From: Limosilactobacillus gorillae
GTDB taxonomy: Bacteria > Verrucomicrobiota > Kiritimatiellia > RFP12 > UBA1067
Assembly: GCA_963653155.1 (NCBI GenBank)
Contig: CAVJWR010000002.1
Location: forward strand, 1 to 52,419
Reading direction: 5' to 3'
Length of the DNA: 52,419 nt
Shown: one piece after another, positions 10,615-45,632 of the stretch
How the letters are laid out: every line of letters starts with the position of its first letter
Position numbering within the stretch: position 1 is the stretch's first letter
Position numbers and translations under genes: made by a program
The notes under the pieces: generated by a model
Seen by the model: the letters and a program-made list of their open reading frames with translations, nothing else
What the model was told of the DNA's origin: nothing
Database searches by the model: none

Positions 10615-10628
10615 CAAAGCCTACGTGC

Positions 10629-10697
10629 GGACGCAATGAATTGCGTCCCTCCCGTCGAAGCGGCCAGTATACGGGAGGGTCGCAACTTGTTGCGACC
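10629..10697. repeat. REPIN-like double hairpin (family 2, divergent copy)
   Basis: ggacgcaatgaattgcgtcc-CTCCC-19 nt-GGGAG-ggtcgcaacttgttgcgacc. It has the same hairpin-CTCCC...GGGAG-hairpin layout as 22005-22118 and 45413-45522 but with different, internally compensated stem sequences. Confidence 0.6.
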
Positions 10698-10730
10698 GAA
10701 TGCGAACCAGCATATGCCCCTTGCAGGTCC

Positions 10731-12170
10731 TTAACGGCTCAGCACATTCAGAAGCCGACCACCGATTGTCTCTACGGTGACGTCGCCAACAAGGCGGATC
10801 GCGTACTCGGGACGCAAGCGGATGGATTGCATCTCGTCTGGAAGCCAGAGCGCGAGACGGTCGCCAGCCTTGCGGTTGGGGACAGTCCCTGAAATCACTG
10901 TATCCGATTCGGGAGCCATGCGGCGACAATCGAAACCAGTCGGACACTCCGTAACCGTGCCATCGGCGGCAATGATCACAAACACGGCCTCTCGCGGATT
11001 GATTGGCGCGGCGAACCCGTAGTTGTGGAGCGTCACGTGCGCCGTGCCGTCCGTCCACCGCACGTCCTTCGCGACAAGTCGATATCCGAGGTGGTCACGG
11101 ATGTACTCGTAGGCCGTGCGGTATGGGACTTCCGCGAAATAGGCGGGGTCTGACGGGATGCCGAACGACGCGAGCAGATCGGCCGTGACAGGTGTCTTCT
11201 TCCATGTGTCAATCGGCCCGATGTCCCGTCCGCTGTTCATGTCGAGCTCCGAATTGCCGTGCACGAGGCTGAATGTCGTATAGTGGTGGCGGCGCAGGCG
11301 AATGAGCGCGTCCAGTCCGTTCTGGCGGGCCGGATCGACGTTCCCGATCCAGAAAAGCTCGCCATCAACCGGCACGTGCGCACCGATCTTGCCGAGCAAG
11401 TCGAATTGCGGATTGCCCGGCTCAGAGTACAAAGCGCCGAGGATATCATCCCACGCCATCTTCATGAGGCGGTTGCGGTCGCCCATGAACGTGCCGGCGT
11501 CATGGAAGGTCGCGAGCGTCGCGTCGTTGAAGAGGCCGATCCGGTCGCCGGCGATGCCGAGGTCGGCAAGGACATCCTCGCGCAACTGCATCGTGCGCAG
11601 CATCGTCGAGCGATTCTCCGGCAGCAGACAATCAATCGTGTCCTTCACGACGCGAGCCGTCGCCGCGCGGTCGAACTCGATGCCGCTGGCGGACGAATGG
11701 AACTCGCCCCACGCACCGACCCAGCCGATCTGGAAGGCGTAGATGACATCGGCATTGCGCTTGACGATATCAGAAAGTTCCCGAATGTGCGAAAGGATGC
11801 GCGCGAGGTTCGGCCCTTTCGTCCGAGACATGTCGGTCTCGTAGGCGAAGCGGAAGAGGAACTTTACGCCGTCTCGACGCGCCTTGTCGAAATCGGCCTG
11901 AAGCGCGTCAAGCTTCGACTGTGGGATTTGCGCATCGCAATACCGCGTAAGGTAGCAATACGCCTGCGCAACCCGCACACCGTCCTTCGCGTACGCCGCA
12001 AACGGCCAGTTGTTCCGTACCGAGCGCGGTAGCGGCTCGCCCGCCTCGCGCCCGACCCGAATCTCGAAGCGGAATCCGCGTTCGGGATTCGGCAAGCCAT
12101 CGCGATTCACGGCAAACGCCGACGCGCAAATCATTCCCGCACATAACAGCACAACATTTGACTTGTTCAT
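10731..12170 (-). CDS. Secreted DUF4874/DUF4832-type glycoside-hydrolase-like protein
   Basis: The start is set at MNKSNVVLLCAGMICASAFA (signal peptide) with GGAGGT/GGAGAA upstream. It is followed by NPERGFRFE... and a TIM-barrel-like region (QIGWVGAWGEFH) typical of DUF4874+DUF4832 proteins. The 668-aa ORF extension overlaps the upstream gene and is Arg/Gly junk. Confidence 0.75.
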   Translation of the reverse strand: MNKSNVVLLCAGMICASAFAVNRDGLPNPERGFRFEIRVGREAGEPLPRSVRNNWPFAAYAKDGVRVAQAYCYLTRYCDAQIPQSKLDALQADFDKARRDGVKFLFRFAYETDMSRTKGPNLARILSHIRELSDIVKRNADVIYAFQIGWVGAWGEFHSSASGIEFDRAATARVVKDTIDCLLPENRSTMLRTMQLREDVLADLGIAGDRIGLFNDATLATFHDAGTFMGDRNRLMKMAWDDILGALYSEPGNPQFDLLGKIGAHVPVDGELFWIGNVDPARQNGLDALIRLRRHHYTTFSLVHGNSELDMNSGRDIGPIDTWKKTPVTADLLASFGIPSDPAYFAEVPYRTAYEYIRDHLGYRLVAKDVRWTDGTAHVTLHNYGFAAPINPREAVFVIIAADGTVTECPTGFDCRRMAPESDTVISGTVPNRKAGDRLALWLPDEMQSIRLRPEYAIRLVGDVTVETIGGRLLNVLSR

Positions 12171-12200
12171 TTCTCCGTACCTCCGTGGCTTCGTGTGAAC
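12171..12200. repeat. Half copy (right arm) of the CACGGAG palindromic element (family 1)
   Basis: ttctccgtacctccgtggcttcgtgtgaac resembles the right arms ctccgtggctccgtgtgagt (21266-21285) and ttctccgtgcctccgt..gtgtgag (23016-23045). It fills the 38-nt spacer between two genes and supplies the GGAG of the downstream RBS. Confidence 0.4.
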
Positions 12201-17060: not shown

Positions 17061-17088
17061 CTACCCACTGCCAACTACCCACTACCAA
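17061..17088. repeat. 14-bp tandem direct repeat x2 immediately after the rnhC stop
   Basis: ctacccactgccaa / ctacccactaccaa directly abutting the stop codon at 17089-17091. Confidence 0.5.
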
Positions 17089-18120
17089 CTATTCCTTACT
17101 CCCCTTGCTTGCAGACACGACCTGGCCTTCAGGTGGAAGGTCGTTGCGCGAAAAGCCGCATGCCGACAGCACCTTGTCGGTCGTCTGGAAATGGGCCTTG
17201 CAGTGATCCATAACCCACTTCGGTCCATTTGCCCGTACGCACTTCTCCGCAAGTTCGCGTATGCGCGGGTCGCTCGATCCTTTCGGTATCGCGCCAATAG
17301 GATTATCCTCCGTAGCGGCGGCAAGCCCATAATCCGGTAATGACGCTATGAGGCTTCTGAGGAACAGTTCACGGGCCACGACCGATGCCGCCGCAACTGC
17401 GACATCGCTTTCTGCCTTGTGCCGCTGATCTACCCTGATCTTTCGTCCACGCTCCTTGAGTGCCCGCCTGATTACGGTCTCTGTCGGCGCGAACTGGTCT
17501 ACGACCACCCTTGGACACGCCGGCTGCTTTTCGAGAAGCGATTCGATACACACGCCATGCGCCCATGCGAGAAGACGATTTATGTTCTTGATCTTCGCGT
17601 AAAGCCTGTTGTATGCGGCCGGGCCGATCTTCACGAATGCCCAGCGGTTCGGGCCAAGCAGATGGCGTATTTTCGAGCCGACCGCAAGTACGGACTTGTC
17701 GGTCATCTGCTTGCAGTCCTTGGCGCCAATCTCCCTCAATTGTGCGGACAACGCCTCGTCCACGTAGCAGCAGGCGACGACAAGCGGGCCGAAGTAGTCA
17801 CCCTTCCCTGATTCGTCGCTTCCGCCATGCGGCTTGTCCCGTTCAGGATCAAGCACCTGTTCGTAGCCAATCGTCGCCGATCCGAGAACTTGGGGTTCAA
17901 GCACAAACAGCACAAAATCCTCAGCCTTGCCGCCCTGAATGCAGCACTTGCGGCGCCCATGCTTGACCTTCTCGTACAGTGTGCAGTTGAACCCGTCACC
18001 CTCTATGGACATCAGCGAGTAAGGAACTTCGCGTTTCCTGTAATTGCCGCGTTCCATTATGAGCAGAAGAAGATTCTGCTGTCCTTCGTCCAATTCGTAT
18101 GTATATGTACTCTGTGCCAT
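17089..18120 (-). CDS. rnhC: Ribonuclease HIII
   Basis: The catalytic motif GSDESGKGDYFGPLVVA sits after an approximately 90-aa N-terminal TBP-like domain, and the length is typical of RNase HIII. The start is set at MAQSTYTYEL (18120) to avoid overlap with comF. Confidence 0.85.
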   Translation of the reverse strand: MAQSTYTYELDEGQQNLLLLIMERGNYRKREVPYSLMSIEGDGFNCTLYEKVKHGRRKCCIQGGKAEDFVLFVLEPQVLGSATIGYEQVLDPERDKPHGGSDESGKGDYFGPLVVACCYVDEALSAQLREIGAKDCKQMTDKSVLAVGSKIRHLLGPNRWAFVKIGPAAYNRLYAKIKNINRLLAWAHGVCIESLLEKQPACPRVVVDQFAPTETVIRRALKERGRKIRVDQRHKAESDVAVAAASVVARELFLRSLIASLPDYGLAAATEDNPIGAIPKGSSDPRIRELAEKCVRANGPKWVMDHCKAHFQTTDKVLSACGFSRNDLPPEGQVVSASKGSKE

Positions 18121-20579: not shown

Positions 20580-20611
20580 GGTTCAAGTGGAAGTTAAAGA
20601 TGGTTGATTTG

Positions 20612-21838
20612 TTACAGCATCTGCCTGAACTGGCCGAAGAGGTAGTCGGAATCGTGTGGTCCCGGACAGCTCTCCGGATGGTACTGCACCGAAAACGCAG
20701 GGAGAGTCCTATGCCGTACCCCCTCGATAGAGCCGTCGTTGAGGTTGATGTGGGTGACCTCAAGGCATGGCGGCACCGAATCCGGCAGAACCGCGAAGTT
20801 GTGGTTTTGGCTCGTGATCTCCACCTTGCCGGTCGCAAGGTTCTTTACTGGGTGGTTGCACCCATGATGTCCGAACGGAAGCCTCCCGGTCTTCGCTCCA
20901 CACGCGAGCGACAGCAACTGGTGTCCGAGACAGATGCCCATGATTGGGATTGGAGCGTGGGTTGCGTCCCTATCCGCATTGTATTTCAGGAGGCTCCTAA
21001 TGTTCTCGATCGCATAGCCGACCGCCGCCGGATCGGCCGGTCCGTTCGAAAGGAACACGCCGTCCGGCTCCATCGCAAGCACATCCTCAGCGGATGTCTT
21101 GGCCGCCACAACCGTCACTCGCGCAAATTTGGCAAGCGACCGAAGTATGTTCATCTTCACGCCGAAATCGTAGCAAACGACGTGGGGGTACTTGATTTTC
21201 TCACACGGAGGCACGGAGGCACGGAGTTTCTGATCTTCCGTCACTGGATTTTCTATTCTTTGCATCTCCGTGGCTCCGTGTGAGTCCACGAATTCATACG
21301 CCTTTTTGCAGCTCACACGACTGGCATAGTCCTGCCCGTCAAGACCTTCCCATGCCCGCGCCTTCTCAATCGCTTCCGACTCCGGCATTGCGCCGCCCGC
21401 CACATGCAGATACGCCTTCTGGTTGCCGAAATCGCGAATGTGGAGCGTCAGTGCCCTTACATCCACGCCATATATGCCAGGAACACCTGCATCTTTCAGA
21501 TACTTGTCAAGCGACGCCTTTGAGCGGAAATTTGACGCCTCCGTCAAATCGTTGACGACAAGCCCATGCAGAAAAAGACCCCGAGATTCCACATCCTCGG
21601 GGTTTGTTCCGTAATTTCCGACCTCTGCGGTGGTGAGGGCGACAATCTGCCCTGCGTATGATGGATCGGTCAAGATTTCCTGATAGCCGCTCATGCCCGT
21701 GTTGAACACGACCTCGCCTACCCGATCCACTTGCGCACCAAATGCCACGCCATGGAACACAGTCCCATCCGCCAACGCCAAGAACGCCGCCCGTTCGCGC
21801 TCCGCCTTCCACTTTGCTCTCAAGACATCATCGTTCAT
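20612..21838 (-). CDS. carA: Carbamoyl-phosphate synthase small (glutamine amidotransferase) subunit
   Basis: LADGTVFHGVAFGA...VVFNTGMSGYQEILTDPSYAGQIV at the N-terminus; the GATase triad context is GICLGHQLL and VQYHPE. The first ATG (21838) has AAGGAA upstream; the ORF-track start at 21856 is a TTG. Confidence 0.93.
   Translation of the reverse strand: MNDDVLRAKWKAERERAAFLALADGTVFHGVAFGAQVDRVGEVVFNTGMSGYQEILTDPSYAGQIVALTTAEVGNYGTNPEDVESRGLFLHGLVVNDLTEASNFRSKASLDKYLKDAGVPGIYGVDVRALTLHIRDFGNQKAYLHVAGGAMPESEAIEKARAWEGLDGQDYASRVSCKKAYEFVDSHGATEMQRIENPVTEDQKLRASVPPCEKIKYPHVVCYDFGVKMNILRSLAKFARVTVVAAKTSAEDVLAMEPDGVFLSNGPADPAAVGYAIENIRSLLKYNADRDATHAPIPIMGICLGHQLLSLACGAKTGRLPFGHHGCNHPVKNLATGKVEITSQNHNFAVLPDSVPPCLEVTHINLNDGSIEGVRHRTLPAFSVQYHPESCPGPHDSDYLFGQFRQML
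21196..21287. repeat. Palindromic CACGGAG element (family 1) lying in-frame inside carA
   Basis: Inverted arms ttttctcacacggaggcacggaggcacggag (21196-21226) and ctccgtggctccgtgtgagt (21266-21285). It is translated as DSHGATEMQRIENPVTEDQKLRASVPPCEKI in the CarA interdomain linker. Confidence 0.6.
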
Positions 21839-21994
21839 ATCAAGTTCCTTAAGCAACTTCCATGCCGTAAAGTAAATGCACCTAAAAAACCAAACAACCT
21901 TACACGTATTGTAAGCAATGGGCTACGACGCTTACACATTCTGCAAGCCACCCACCTCTCATCTAAGGATCAGAGTCTATTGATACACCTAATG

Positions 21995-22840
21995 CTAATG
22001 TAAGTGCAAAACCTTCGCGATTGTGGACGGAACAAGCCCGTCCCTCCCAAAAACGGCGAATCTTGGCAGTTTTGTGAAGATGCGGGAGGGACACGCTTGT
22101 CGTGTCCGAGGTTTTGCAATTGCCTCACACTGTATTGGCAATGCCACATCAGGCTCAAGCCGCTTACTCTTGCTATGGGACATAGTTGCGTGAGGTCGGC
22201 TTCGTTTCTTCTCGATTTTCTTCCGATCCACTACCGTCAGCTCAATCTGCCTGAATTTCGGATTCTCATAGAATACCGTTACCGCTGGGAACTGCGTTCC
22301 GAACTCGGAGTTGGCGCATCGAGCGATGCCAGACGCATCAAATTCAAACAACTGGAAGACCCAATGGTTGTGATCGCTCTTTTCGAACTTCTCGAAGAAG
22401 CTCGACAGGCGAAAATACGTCTTCCCTCCGACTTTTATCAGGTCAGACAGCTCTGCGCCATAACCACTGAAAACATTTTCCTTCCGTCCGCCCTTCCCGT
22501 CCGAGACAATGAAGTGGATAGTGTATCCGTCCGCATTCAGTCCGCAACCCATCCATGGAACGATGAACACGAAGTCTTCGACGCCATCGCCATTCAAGTC
22601 CAATCCTCCGCCTTCAGAATAGGATACACCACTTGGTTCCTCTTTCTCCAATGCGGTGACAAAGATACTCACGCTTTTCGACGGCAGCTTCCTGACAACC
22701 GCCGGCGTTGACTTGAACTCTGGCGCCCACTTTTCCATCCAAGCCTGCGCACATGGCGAGGCAAGAAGCACCGAAACCAGCAATCCACGCCCAAAACTCG
22801 CGAAATGGCCACGAGACCTATCGCTTTTCTCTTGCATCAT
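21995..22840 (-). CDS. Hypothetical secreted protein with an FG-GAP/calcium-loop-like DLNGDGVEDF motif; the C-terminus is encoded by a repeat element
   Basis: 281-aa ORF with AGGAGAAA as RBS and a signal-like N-terminus (GRGLLVSVLLASPCAQA). The last approximately 40-58 codons run through the palindromic repeat at 22005-22118. Confidence 0.55.
   Translation of the reverse strand: MMQEKSDRSRGHFASFGRGLLVSVLLASPCAQAWMEKWAPEFKSTPAVVRKLPSKSVSIFVTALEKEEPSGVSYSEGGGLDLNGDGVEDFVFIVPWMGCGLNADGYTIHFIVSDGKGGRKENVFSGYGAELSDLIKVGGKTYFRLSSFFEKFEKSDHNHWVFQLFEFDASGIARCANSEFGTQFPAVTVFYENPKFRQIELTVVDRKKIEKKRSRPHATMSHSKSKRLEPDVALPIQCEAIAKPRTRQACPSRIFTKLPRFAVFGRDGLVPSTIAKVLHLH
22005..22118. repeat. REPIN-like palindromic element, family 2, copy A
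   Basis: tgcaaaacc...ggacggaacaagcccgtcc-CTCCC-35 nt-GGGAG-ggacacgcttgtcgtgtcc...ggttttgca. It is about 80-90 percent identical by eye to the inverted copy at 45413-45522. Confidence 0.7.
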
Positions 22841-22866
22841 TTTCTCCTATGTGTTTATGACAACAT

Positions 22867-22875
22867 AGTATATCA
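22867..22875 (-). promoter_or_regulatory. Extended -10 box TGaTATACT upstream of the 22840 gene
   Basis: The minus strand reads TGATATACT, about 26 nt upstream of the ATG, followed by AGGAGAAA. Confidence 0.35.
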
Positions 22876-22912
22876 TTTTATGTTCATCCTAAACGCGGCA
22901 GTTGGAACTCGA

Positions 22913-23045
22913 TTTTCTCACACGGAGTGACGGAGATTGCCGACATACGCACAACTCTCGTTGTCTTTAACACAGAGGCACGAAGGCTCAGAGTCACAGA
23001 GCGGCTTTCAACATTCTTCTCCGTGCCTCCGTTTCTCTGTGTGAG
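22913..23045. repeat. Palindromic CACGGAG/CACAGAG element (family 1), intergenic full copy
   Basis: The left arm ttttctcacacggagtgacggag (22913-22935) has its first 15 nt identical to the carA copy. The right arm is cttctccgtgcctccgtttctctgtgtgag (23016-23045). An internal block reads cacagaggcacgaaggctcagagtcacagag. Confidence 0.6.
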
Positions 23046-23126
23046 CCAAAAACCTCGAAACAGACCTGAACACGACAAAGAAAACCTGAAGGTCTCTTTT
23101 CGCCAACCATTTCGCCGAGCATGGCA

Positions 23127-23230
23127 TTGTCGAGCTATTCTGCGAAAGGCACATCGCTGGGCATGCGCCAGTCTCCGCGCGGAGAAAGGTTTATGCTTCC
23201 AATCTTGGGTCCGCCGTCAGTCTGCTGACA
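23127..23230 (-). pseudogene. Relic 3' end of a nadE (NAD+ synthase) gene
   Basis: The minus strand translates to ..[27 protein letters not shown]-stop (stop at 23135-23137). The real NadE C-terminus is ..[26 protein letters not shown]-stop at 41419. The DNA match continues 8 nt past the stop (ttgtcgag vs ttgccgag). Confidence 0.7.
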
Positions 23231-45412: not shown

Positions 45413-45522
45413 AGCAAACTCCAGACGCGACAAGCGCGTCCCTCCCATATCTTTGCAAAGGCAAAAATTCGCCGTTTTCGGGAGGGACGGGCTTGTCCCG
45501 TCCGCAATCACAAAAGTTTTGT
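45413..45522. repeat. REPIN-like palindromic element, family 2, copy B (inverted relative to copy A)
   Basis: agacgcgacaagcgcgtcc-CTCCC-33 nt-GGGAG-ggacgggcttgtcccgtcc. The spacer attcgccgtttt is the reverse complement of aaaacggcgaat in copy A. Confidence 0.7.
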
Positions 45523-45600
45523 AAGTGCCATGCGGCGATTTCATCGAAATCGCCCTACCAAGCCCACGTACAATCCCTAAATGGTTCAATGCCTAAATGC

Positions 45601-45624
45601 AATCGTAAATCGCAAATCGTAAAT
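45601..45624. repeat. 7-bp tandem repeat (aatcgta/aatcgca/aatcgta) just downstream of the RND gene stop
   Basis: aatcgtaaatcgcaaatcgtaaat, preceded by a duplicated cctaaatg (45576, 45592). Confidence 0.4.
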
Positions 45625-45632
45625 TCAACCTC

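What the first reader, a model, noticed from the sequence alone, without database searches (positions are those of the whole stretch)
21196..21287. Dispersed palindromic element inserted in-frame inside the essential gene carA
On the + strand, 21196-21226 (ttttctcacacggaggcacggaggcacggag) and 21266-21285 (ctccgtggctccgtgtgagt) are inverted repeats built from CACGGAG heptamers, giving a potential stem of about 20 bp. The unit of about 90 nt (30 codons) lies wholly inside the carA frame and is translated as DSHGATEMQRIENPVTEDQKLRASVPPCEKI. It sits in the linker between the N-terminal domain and the amidotransferase domain, just before the conserved HVVCYDFG strand. The same termini bound an intergenic copy at 22913-23045, where the first 15 nt are identical, and a half copy at 12171-12200. 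This therefore looks like a mobile or recombinogenic palindrome tolerated in-frame in a housekeeping protein, analogous to Rickettsia palindromic elements. From memory, the E. coli CarA linker is about 13 aa shorter here.
Basis: partly seen in the sequence, partly recalled or inferred. Interest (0 to 1): 0.7.

Follow-up and report, generated by a model that had tools for sequence, protein, structure and literature searches.

The report
Octamer-hairpin repeat translated inside carA
A roughly 90-base hairpin-forming repeat, built from inverted runs of the 8-base unit CACGGAGN and found in genomes assigned to many bacterial phyla, sits in-frame in the linker of the enzyme subunit CarA of this Kiritimatiellia bacterium, where it is old, variable between strains and kept far more constant than the gene around it.

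Summary
Window 21190-21284 holds two inverted arms (CTCA plus CACGGAGN units, period 8, not 7). They lie in-frame in carA (minus strand) and encode residues 191-222, between the two Pfam domains. The window has two more copies: 22911-23049, and a solo arm at 12171-12198.

It is not a clean, recent indel. Orthologous carA genes of Kiritimatiellia carry full, half or vestigial versions at the same codon position and in the same frame, and all ten alleles read stay in-frame. Short alleles look like deletion derivatives. Near-identical strains differ only in the linker allele.

The arms are 45/46 identical between lineages whose carA is 74% identical (four-fold sites 49%). Variant lineages change both arms together. 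Something therefore keeps the arms constant: selection or copy correction.

The same termini occur in MAGs labelled as more than ten phyla, mostly as compact intergenic hairpins. I found no target-site duplication, no transposase, no Rfam family and no published description.

The element behaves like Rickettsia palindromic elements and intragenic REP dimers but fails their defining features. I class it as a new variant of a known kind. How it spreads is unknown.

The parts
20612..21856 (-). carA, the glutamine-hydrolysing small subunit of carbamoyl-phosphate synthase. The ORF is listed from TTG at 21856. The likely true start is the ATG at 21838 (MNDDV...), as in the orthologues.
   Evidence: ORF list. 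Pfam PF00988 at residues 26-149 and PF00117 at 228-412. E = 3e-101 to E. coli CarA chains 1cs0_B/1bxr_B. The orthologues begin at MNDDV/MNDEV.
21190..21284 (-). The whole element-derived segment inside carA. It encodes about residues 191-222 (DSHGATEMQRIENPVTEDQKLRASVPPCEKIK).
   Evidence: Inverted repeat. Folds. Codon-by-codon reading. Compared with the shortest close allele (L005) the window has 75 extra bases, in-frame.
21200..21226 (+). Arm A as written on the + strand: CTCA plus three CACGGAGN units. On the carA sense strand this arm is the 3' arm and reads LRASVPPCE.
   Evidence: TRF period 8, 2.9 copies. nhmmer E = 4e-10. 26 of 27 bases identical to the L133 and L135 carA arms.
21190..21199 (+). 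Conserved extension of one end, ACTTGATTTT. The consensus in Kiritimatiellia copies is GCAGTTGGAACTCGATTTT. GATTTT plus the terminus is also present at five other sites in metagenome contigs of 42-72% G+C.
   Evidence: Identical GATTTTCTCACACGGAG at 22911-22927. Extended ends in L006 and L048. Metagenome hits L126-L129 and L131.
21227..21265 (.). Loop. It is lineage-specific and includes a decayed third unit at 21258-21265. It encodes MQRIENPVTEDQK.
   Evidence: The loops of L133 (16 nt) and L137 (13 nt) are unrelated in sequence.
21266..21284 (+). Arm B as written on the + strand: CTCCGTGGCTCCGTGTGAG. On the carA sense strand this is the 5' arm and reads SHGATE.
   Evidence: E = 3e-4. Identical 19-mer in L133 carA.
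22911..23049 (.). Intergenic composite copy with outer arms at 22917-22935 and 23019-23045. An extra inner arm at 22971-23001 forms a compact hairpin with the right-hand arm.
   Evidence: Orthologous copies sit at L006 1-160, L005 3618-3697 and L002 8987-9051.
12171..12198 (-). Solo arm (TCACACGAAGCCACGGAGGTACGGAGAA) in the 38-nt spacer between two genes on the same strand. Its last GGAG lies 3 nt before the ATG at 12170 of the downstream signal-peptide protein.
   Evidence: Sequence. nhmmer. Orthologous arm plus start codon in L006 8444-8475, where the gene is called from that ATG and has DUF4874/DUF4832 hits.

Best explanation
Window 21190-21284 is a resident copy of a dispersed, non-coding foldback element. 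Each end of the element is an array of two to four 8-base units, CAC(G/A)GAGN, capped by CTCA...TGAG. The two arrays are inverted, and the interior is free to vary from 8 to about 130 nt.

The copy entered the carA linker in an early ancestor of this Kiritimatiellia group. It is transcribed and translated with the gene. It is tolerated for two reasons: it lies in a linker whose length varies naturally, and two of the three reading frames of the CTCC arm, and all three of the GGAG arm, lack stop codons.

Since then the site has behaved as a recombination and deletion hot spot. Some lineages keep a full hairpin, others only one arm or a single unit, and alleles are exchanged between near-identical strains.

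Shown:
- The anatomy of the element.
- In-frame residence in carA.
- Shared position and frame across lineages.
- Arms far more conserved than the gene around them, and changing in step.
- Presence of the termini in MAGs labelled as many phyla.

Inferred:
- The arms are kept constant by an active process. This could be correction against the other arm or against other genomic copies, or selection on the hairpin.
- The family spreads as a hairpin through some machinery supplied in trans (REPIN-like), or by recombination and template switching at existing arms.
- The peptide is a neutral linker extension.
For: 1. Anatomy and significance.
2. Family consensus from 231 arms is gGg-CTCA-(CACRGAGn)x3. 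Compact 61-67 nt hairpins are found in Gemmatimonadota and 160-170 nt forms in Kiritimatiellia, Thiotrichales and Acidobacteriota, with unrelated interiors.
3. All ten linker alleles read are multiples of three with no stop codon (60, 66, 81, 81, 111, 141, 141, 141, 156, 177 nt). The CTCC arm is always read in the same frame: LRASVPPCE, LCDSVPLCD, LRASAPLRE.
4. L133 and L135 are syntenic and 93% identical in DNA over the aligned locus (89% within carA). They differ by a 60-nt in-frame block, so that L135 keeps only the 3' arm.
5. The 381-residue clade keeps only GCTCCGTGCGGGGAAAACC, a probable vestige of the terminus.
6. P0001 and P0009 carA differ at 8 of about 1100 bases outside the linker, yet carry the full hairpin and a short allele respectively, and have 4 further differences in the 15 nt just downstream. 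The short alleles (L005, L001, L162) share one deletion junction.
7. Window against L133: carA is 74% identical in DNA and four-fold sites are 49% identical, but the arms are 45/46 identical. Within the close clade the element differs at 7-11% of sites, against 20-23% at four-fold sites.
8. On seven carA lineages, 27 pairs are 90% paired and 8 pairs change on both sides. No shuffle of 500 reaches this, and sliding the partners by 1-3 columns drops pairing to 28-53%.
Nearly every hit carries a third unit or an inverted partner, in contigs of 36-72% G+C.
Against: - No mechanism of movement was seen. There is no target-site duplication, no transposase between arm pairs 0.6-4.5 kb apart, and no recurrent ORF family next to arms in about 1 Mb.
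- There is no clean filled-versus-empty pair for carA. Every 'short' allele still contains element-derived bases, so the original insertion event is inferred rather than observed.
- Conservation and co-variation of the arms could equally reflect independent re-insertion of lineage-specific variants at the same site.
- Translation of the block is inferred from frame conservation only.
- The phylum labels come from MAG bins and may include mis-binned contigs.
- In L006 the arms carry three uncompensated changes, so maintenance is not absolute.
Confidence: 0.7

Rival explanations
1. The hairpin is a selected cis-acting signal of carA itself. It could be an RNase III or decay site, a translational pause between the two domains, or an internal start that yields a free amidotransferase domain. 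On this view the copies elsewhere are incidental.
For: The arms are conserved well beyond four-fold sites. Both arms change together across lineages. The RNA stem is strong. In the window allele, GGAGCCACGGAGATG gives a Shine-Dalgarno-like GGAG 8 nt before an in-frame ATG.
Against: Many lineages do without it. The 395-, 394- and 381-residue alleles have lost one or both arms. Near-identical strains carry either allele. The internal ATG is ATA or ACA in L002, L130 and L006. The same arms are conserved at intergenic sites and in other phyla, where carA is not involved. No terminator-like or Rfam signal lies on the element.
Confidence: 0.12
2. The structure arose in place and is not mobile. Slippage expanded an octamer in the linker, and template switching then copied the array in inverted orientation. 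Similarity to other loci would reflect the same local processes, or copying outwards from carA.
For: Unit number varies from 1 to 4 between alleles. L135 has a solo arm where L133 has a perfectly complementary 27/27 hairpin. Unrelated octamer arrays also sit in-frame in relatives: AATGGTCG in carA and RGTGGAAA in pyrG.
Against: The same 17-27 nt termini, including the non-repetitive cap CTCA and the flank GATTTT, occur at hundreds of unrelated sites in contigs of 36-72% G+C. Independent local origin cannot produce that.
Confidence: 0.08
3. [quoted passage not shown] This is the first reader's picture of a clean, lineage-specific indel.
For: Terminal inverted repeats, small size, no coding capacity and several copies in the window.
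Against: The site is occupied in lineages whose carA is only about 79% identical in protein. The short alleles retain element ends. No target-site duplication in 90 hairpins. No parent element found.
Confidence: 0.05
4. Assembly or binning artefact.
For: None specific.
Against: The same carA allele appears in independent assemblies from NCBI, ENA, Logan and JGI: L002, L003, L004, L006, L130, L132, L161.
Confidence: 0.01

Closest known systems
Rickettsia palindromic elements (RPE; Ogata et al. 2000, as summarised in PMC10969869)
   Same: A short palindromic repeat that lies in-frame inside conserved, unrelated metabolic genes. It is translated with the host protein and apparently tolerated there. 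Other copies of the same family are intergenic.
   Different: RPEs are about 100-150 bp, belong to ten Rickettsia families and interrupt dozens of genes per genome. Here the arms are tandem octamer arrays. The family occurs in MAGs labelled as many phyla. Coding-region copies are rare (carA and carB). No conserved element-encoded peptide family was found outside CarA.
Intragenic REP dimers (GTAG- and CGTC-tagged REPs; Di Nocera et al. 2013, PMC3733652), most numerous in the PVC bacterium Opitutus terrae and in R. conorii
   Same: Inverted pairs of short repeats that add 20-30 residues to known proteins. This precedent exists within the same superphylum as this organism. The family is otherwise mostly intergenic, lying downstream of genes.
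   Different: REP units are themselves 20-40 bp stem-loops with an unpaired GTAG or CGTC tag. Here each arm is a direct array of 8-mers that does not fold on its own, and the ends are CTCAC/GTGAG.
REPINs mobilised by RAYT transposases (Bertels and Rainey 2011, PMC3116915)
   Same: A hairpin-forming doublet is the replicative unit. The element is non-autonomous, solo units look like decay products, and compact intergenic copies are abundant (in Gemmatimonadota).
   Different: REPIN families are specific to a genome and its RAYT. No RAYT link was found here. The arm sequence is shared by very distant hosts.
Bacterial MITEs (Correia/NEMIS, ERIC, Nezha and others; PMC10969869, PMC3184786)
   Same: Terminal inverted repeats, 60-170 nt, a variable interior, occasional in-frame fusions, and the ability to donate regulatory signals. 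Here a solo arm supplies the ribosome-binding site at 12171-12198.
   Different: No target-site duplication and no parent insertion sequence were found. The inverted repeats are made of tandem sub-repeats, which recalls eukaryotic foldback elements (my own knowledge).
Short tandem heptamer arrays: cyanobacterial STRR sequences (my own knowledge) and TAACTGA repeats of Beggiatoaceae (PMC4679880)
   Same: Arrays of a 7-8 nt unit at many intergenic sites. One unit is shared by distantly related lineages.
   Different: Those have period 7 and are described as direct arrays, not as inverted pairs forming hairpins. They are not reported in-frame in housekeeping enzymes.

Membership tests
CarA (carbamoyl-phosphate synthase small subunit), the host gene | An N-terminal CPSase_sm_chain domain followed by a class-I glutamine amidotransferase domain, with full-length similarity to solved CarA structures. 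| tested here: met
   PF00988 at 159 bits and PF00117 at 166 bits. E = 3e-101 to E. coli CarA over residues 22-413.
Rickettsia palindromic elements | Sequence membership in one of the RPE families of Rickettsia. | not testable with these tools
   No RPE consensus library was available. From my own knowledge, RPEs are restricted to Rickettsia and lack octamer arrays. The host here is Kiritimatiellia.
Rickettsia palindromic elements | Frequent in-frame insertion into many unrelated protein genes of one genome (44 in R. conorii, per PMC10969869). | tested here: not met
   In about 205 kb of Kiritimatiellia DNA only carA and carB have in-frame internal copies. The 34-residue block found no other real protein family among 1.84 billion representatives.
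REP / REPIN | The unit is a 20-40 bp stem-loop with an unpaired GTAG or CGTC tag at one end (PMC3733652). | tested here: not met
   The arms are direct octamer arrays and the ends are CTCAC/GTGAG. The flank consensus gGg/aCc carries no GTAG or CGTC.
REP / REPIN | Two units in inverted orientation form a hairpin that is the replicative unit, and singlets decay (PMC3116915). | tested here: inconclusive
   Inverted arms and solo arms both exist. No replication or excision intermediate could be examined.
REP / REPIN | Association with a RAYT (Y1 HUH) transposase gene. | tested here: inconclusive
   Arm pairs 0.6-4.5 kb apart enclose ordinary genes. No recurrent ORF family other than kinases, ABC transporters and permeases lies near arms in about 1 Mb. 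Whole genomes were not available.
MITE | Terminal inverted repeats, length under about 300 bp, no transposase gene. | tested here: met
MITE | Target-site duplication of fixed length flanking the element. | tested here: not met
   Among 90 hairpins, allowing boundary shifts of -2 to +5 on each side, the best case for k = 3 was 6 of 90 and for k = 4 was 3 of 90.
MITE | A parent insertion sequence with the same inverted repeats. | tested here: inconclusive
   None was found in the fetched loci. No collection-wide search for one was possible.
Intrinsic terminator or Rfam RNA family | A G+C-rich stem followed by a T run, or a match to a curated covariance model. | tested here: not met
   No terminator-like site lies on the element arms, and the count in the region is at the shuffle level. 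No Rfam match at gathering score or at E <= 1.

The most novel reading that the evidence does not exclude
The CTCA-(CACRGAGN)n foldback is an undescribed family of selfish or functional hairpins present in many phyla. On this reading its arms are recognised by a widely conserved but unknown machinery, or propagate through a hairpin-templated copying process. That would explain why the arms stay nearly identical at sites where even four-fold sites of an essential gene are saturated. It would also explain how the element repeatedly regenerates at old insertion sites and seeds new surface loops in housekeeping enzymes (CarA, CarB) and new ribosome-binding sites.
Probability: 0.3. Interest if true: 0.8.

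Novelty: new variant of a known kind. Interest (0 to 1): 0.55.

Why it matters
This is a documented case, outside Rickettsia, of a palindromic repeat living for a long time inside an essential biosynthetic enzyme. It has a readable series of states: full hairpin, one arm, and a single unit.

It shows that a linker can serve as a lasting landing pad where selfish DNA becomes protein sequence. It also shows that such sites stay polymorphic within populations.

The wider point is the arm sequence itself. It is 98% conserved where the host gene is 74% identical, and it is shared by contigs of 36-72% G+C labelled as more than ten phyla. That pattern needs an explanation: an unknown binding or mobilising factor, or a self-correcting hairpin mechanism.

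For annotation, these arrays produce recognisable peptide strings (SHGATE..., LRASVPPCE...). Those strings mark both spurious ORFs and genuine insertions.

Tried and rejected
- Structure prediction of the window CarA from the 27-sequence alignment gave mean pLDDT 48. It is unusable, so the position of the block in three dimensions rests on the alignment to E. coli CarA only.
- Rfam gave nothing, either at gathering scores on five sources or at E <= 1 on 21100-23150.
- Literature searches by sequence string and by topic found no description of the family.
- A metagenome scan with the long terminus GATTTTCTCACACGGAGNNACGGAG gave only 7 hits. Two were carA orthologues.
- A viral-contig scan found 23 stretches, some with several copies. 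This was not informative about spread.
- I tested whether solo arms generally act as ribosome-binding sites. 29 of 169 solo arms are followed by an ORF of at least 80 residues, against 21% at random positions, so there is no enrichment. Individual cases are convincing.
- I looked for an autonomous element between distant arm pairs and by clustering ORFs near arms. Only ordinary genes and common paralogous families turned up.
- The target-site duplication test was negative.
- A crude test of coding context in high-G+C loci (spanning ORF plus a GC3 signal) suggested most Gemmatimonadota hairpins are intergenic. The candidates it flagged were spurious ORFs.
- The peptide search of the representative library returned three unrelated repetitive proteins and one spurious ORF running across tandem elements.
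Full report
**What is there**

carA occupies 20612-21856 on the minus strand. It has the two expected Pfam domains, CPSase_sm_chain at residues 26-149 and GATase at 228-412. It aligns over its full length with E. coli CarA at E = 3e-101.

On the + strand it reads ACTTGATTTT-CTCACACGGAGGCACGGAGGCACGGAG-(39 nt)-CTCCGTGGCTCCGTGTGAG.

- The arms 21200-21218 and 21266-21284 are 95% complementary.
- The stretch folds at -38 kcal/mol as RNA (z = -5.0) and at -25.8 kcal/mol as DNA (z = -6.6).
- The unit is an octamer, CACGGAGN (TRF period 8), not a heptamer.
- On the coding strand the block is read as VDSHGATEMQRIENPVTEDQKLRASVPPCEKIKY.
- The E. coli linker is 13 residues shorter.

The window holds two further copies. 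One is a composite intergenic element at 22911-23049, which shares 17 identical terminal bases. The other is a solo arm at 12171-12198. A profile built from 178 arms finds nothing else in the window.

**The carA site in relatives**

The closest CarA proteins in public data are from Kiritimatiellia and range from 376 to 448 residues. The alignment shows three places where length varies: after KAYLHV, in the linker, and after IENIRxLL.

I fetched the DNA of ten lineages and read the linker codon by codon. Element-derived sequence is present at the same position in all of them:

| Lineage(s) | State of the linker |
|---|---|
| window, L002-4, L006, L130/L132, L161 | full hairpin with CACGGAG arms |
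| L133 | full hairpin with 27/27 complementary arms and a 16-nt loop |
| L137 | full hairpin with CACAGAG/CTCTGTG arms |
| L134 | CGCAGAG/CTCYGCG arms, with a different repeat array (AATCCTGTN) nested in the loop |
| L135 | only the 3' arm |
| 381-residue clade (L136) | a single terminal unit, GCTCCGTGCGGGGAAAACC, a probable vestige |
| L005, L001, L162 | about one and a half units of the 5' arm |

All ten alleles are multiples of three (60 to 177 nt) without stop codons. The CTCC arm is always read in the same frame. This frame conservation is the evidence that the block is translated.

**Recent dynamics**

L133 and L135 are syntenic and 93% identical in DNA over the aligned locus. Within carA (89% identical) they differ by a 60-nt in-frame block, the 5' arm plus the loop.

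P0001 and P0009 are identical in protein outside the linker except for one residue. Their genes differ at 8 of about 1100 bases outside the linker. Yet one carries the full hairpin and the other a short allele, and there are 4 more differences in the 15 nt immediately downstream. That pattern points to exchange of linker alleles by recombination between co-circulating strains. The two alleles came from runs of one study.

The short alleles L005, L001 and L162 share one junction (…CAC|AT(A/G)TTCCCC…). They therefore descend from a single 75-nt deletion of a full element. The element is dispensable for CarA.

**The arms are actively kept constant**

Among the close clade (window, L002, L006) the element differs at 7-11% of sites, while four-fold degenerate sites of the same gene differ at 20-23%.

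Between the window and L133, carA is 74% identical in DNA and four-fold sites are 49% identical, which is close to saturation. The arms are nevertheless 19/19 and 26/27 identical.

Across seven lineages the 27 proposed pairs are 90% paired and 8 pairs change on both sides. No shuffle of 500 reaches this, and sliding the partners by one to three columns drops pairing to 28-53%.

An old insertion decaying neutrally cannot give this pattern. Three processes could: selection on the hairpin, correction of the arms against each other or against other genomic copies, or renewed insertion of each lineage's own variant at the old site. I cannot separate these. The unrelated loops of the window, L133 and L137 fit either renewal or fast loop turnover. 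L006 shows three uncompensated changes, so maintenance is not absolute.

**The family**

- Most hits are in Gemmatimonadota (Longimicrobium and a complete 5.8-Mb Gemmatimonadales chromosome). There the element is a compact 61-67 nt hairpin with three units per arm and an 8-nt loop.
- Other hits carry labels from Kiritimatiellota, Verrucomicrobiota, Planctomycetota, Chloroflexota, Acidobacteriota, Nitrospirota, several proteobacterial classes, Bacteroidota and more. Their contigs range from 36 to 72% G+C.
- Nearly every hit has a third unit or an inverted partner, so these are not chance matches.
- Even the flank GATTTT is shared by contigs of 42-72% G+C.
- The consensus of 231 arms is gGg-CTCA-(CACRGAGn)x3.
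- Longer forms of 160-170 nt exist in several phyla, but their interiors are unrelated. Only the arms are conserved.

In about 205 kb of Kiritimatiellia DNA, period-8 arrays are dominated by this family. Most copies are intergenic.

Besides carA, one solo arm lies in-frame in the interdomain linker of carB in L136. It reads CTCCGTGCCTCCGTGTCTCCGGGCGAG, giving SLRASVSPGE. One copy forms the C-terminal tail of an ORF in L020.

**How it spreads is not resolved**

Ninety hairpins show no target-site duplication. Their flanks are only weakly A-rich upstream and T-rich downstream.

Arm pairs 0.6-4.5 kb apart enclose ordinary genes. Clustering 2765 ORFs from about 1 Mb around arms yields only kinases, ABC ATPases and permeases as recurrent families.

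There is no Rfam match and no terminator-like signal on the element. I found no paper that describes it.

**Comparison with what is known**

The behaviour matches Rickettsia palindromic elements, which are palindromic repeats fused in-frame to metabolic genes (PMC10969869). It also matches the intragenic REP dimers that add 20-30 residues to proteins. Those are most numerous in Opitutus terrae, a PVC bacterium, and in R. conorii (PMC3733652).

It is not a member of either:

- There is no GTAG or CGTC tag.
- The arms are not stem-loops on their own.
- Coding copies are rare rather than frequent. The 34-residue block finds no other real protein family among 1.84 billion representatives.

It has the form of a MITE but lacks target-site duplications and a parent element. 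Its inverted repeats made of tandem sub-units recall eukaryotic foldback elements, and its short unit recalls heptamer arrays such as TAACTGA repeats (PMC4679880). I therefore class it as a new variant of a known kind.

**Verdict**

The history is different from what was proposed. The insertion is old, is shared across a wide clade, has been repeatedly trimmed and exchanged, and has arms held constant by a process not yet identified. The most interesting open point is that conservation of the arms across very distant hosts.

Noticed in passing
window 10628-10698, 22025-22107, 45424-45502: A second, unrelated dispersed inverted-repeat family. Each arm is a small stem-loop (GGACG-N8-CGTCC) followed by CTCCC, and the two arms are inverted 15-37 nt apart, which looks like a REPIN. 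All three copies are intergenic.
   Followed up: partly
window 21857-22200, compared with L006 903-1315, L002 9702-10000 and L005 5867-6000: The spacer upstream of carA is a hot spot for hairpin elements. The window has the GGGAGGGACG hairpin, L006 has a 162-nt CACGGAG element with an extra outer inverted repeat (AAAAATCGCAGTTGA), L002 has a third kind of hairpin, and L005 has none.
   Followed up: partly
window 12168-12198 (minus strand); L006 8444-8475: The solo arm ends ...CACGGAGGTACGGAGAA followed by ATG. Its last GGAG serves as the Shine-Dalgarno sequence of a signal-peptide protein (MNKSNVVLL..., DUF4874/DUF4832). The arrangement is conserved in L006. This is an element arm reused as a ribosome-binding site.
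   Followed up: partly
window 21263-21277 (carA sense strand: GGAGCCACGGAGATG): In this allele only, the element creates a GGAG 8 nt before an in-frame ATG (Met198). That could start a free amidotransferase domain. The ATG is ATA or ACA in L002, L130 and L006, so it is probably not functional.
   Followed up: partly
L133 10433-10469, 10895-10966 and 12705-12737: Other short arrays lie in-frame in a relative but are absent from its 93%-identical neighbour L135. They are AATGGTCG x4.6 after KAYLHV in carA, a 72-nt block after IENIRxLL in carA, and RGTGGAAA x3.8 (30 nt) in pyrG. Octamer arrays of several sequences enter coding regions in this group.
   Followed up: partly
L136 16773-16799 (carB): A three-unit 3' arm matching the consensus at 25 of 27 bases lies in-frame in the linker before the second synthetase half of CarB, reading SLRASVSPGE. 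This is a second subunit of the same enzyme carrying the same element.
   Followed up: partly
L005 7233-7272; L136 11191-11214: Arrays of the octamer CCATTTAA lie in the spacer between carA and pyrG in two lineages. The window has only a degenerate trace at 20580-20611.
   Followed up: no
L006 951-1112 and 1-160; L048 7549-7718: The 160-170 nt Kiritimatiellia form has GGAG(A/G)AATG directly after one arm and an open frame of about 50 codons running into the other arm (M[SI]GF...CDIL.KLRVSV.PC). Too few copies are available to tell whether it is a small gene or only DNA conservation.
   Followed up: no
Gemmatimonadota loci, for example L023 4950, L045 (minus strand) 5097, L040 (minus strand) 5641, L043 3245: Several arms abut real-looking start codons (GAGaATG...) of ordinary genes such as deoxyhypusine synthase-like and threonine synthase-like ORFs. 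Across all solo arms this is not more frequent than at random positions.
   Followed up: yes
window 45572-45628 and 17061-17091: Intergenic low-complexity arrays: AATGCCTA x3.6 followed by AATCGTA x3.4, and CTACCAA x4.4.
   Followed up: no
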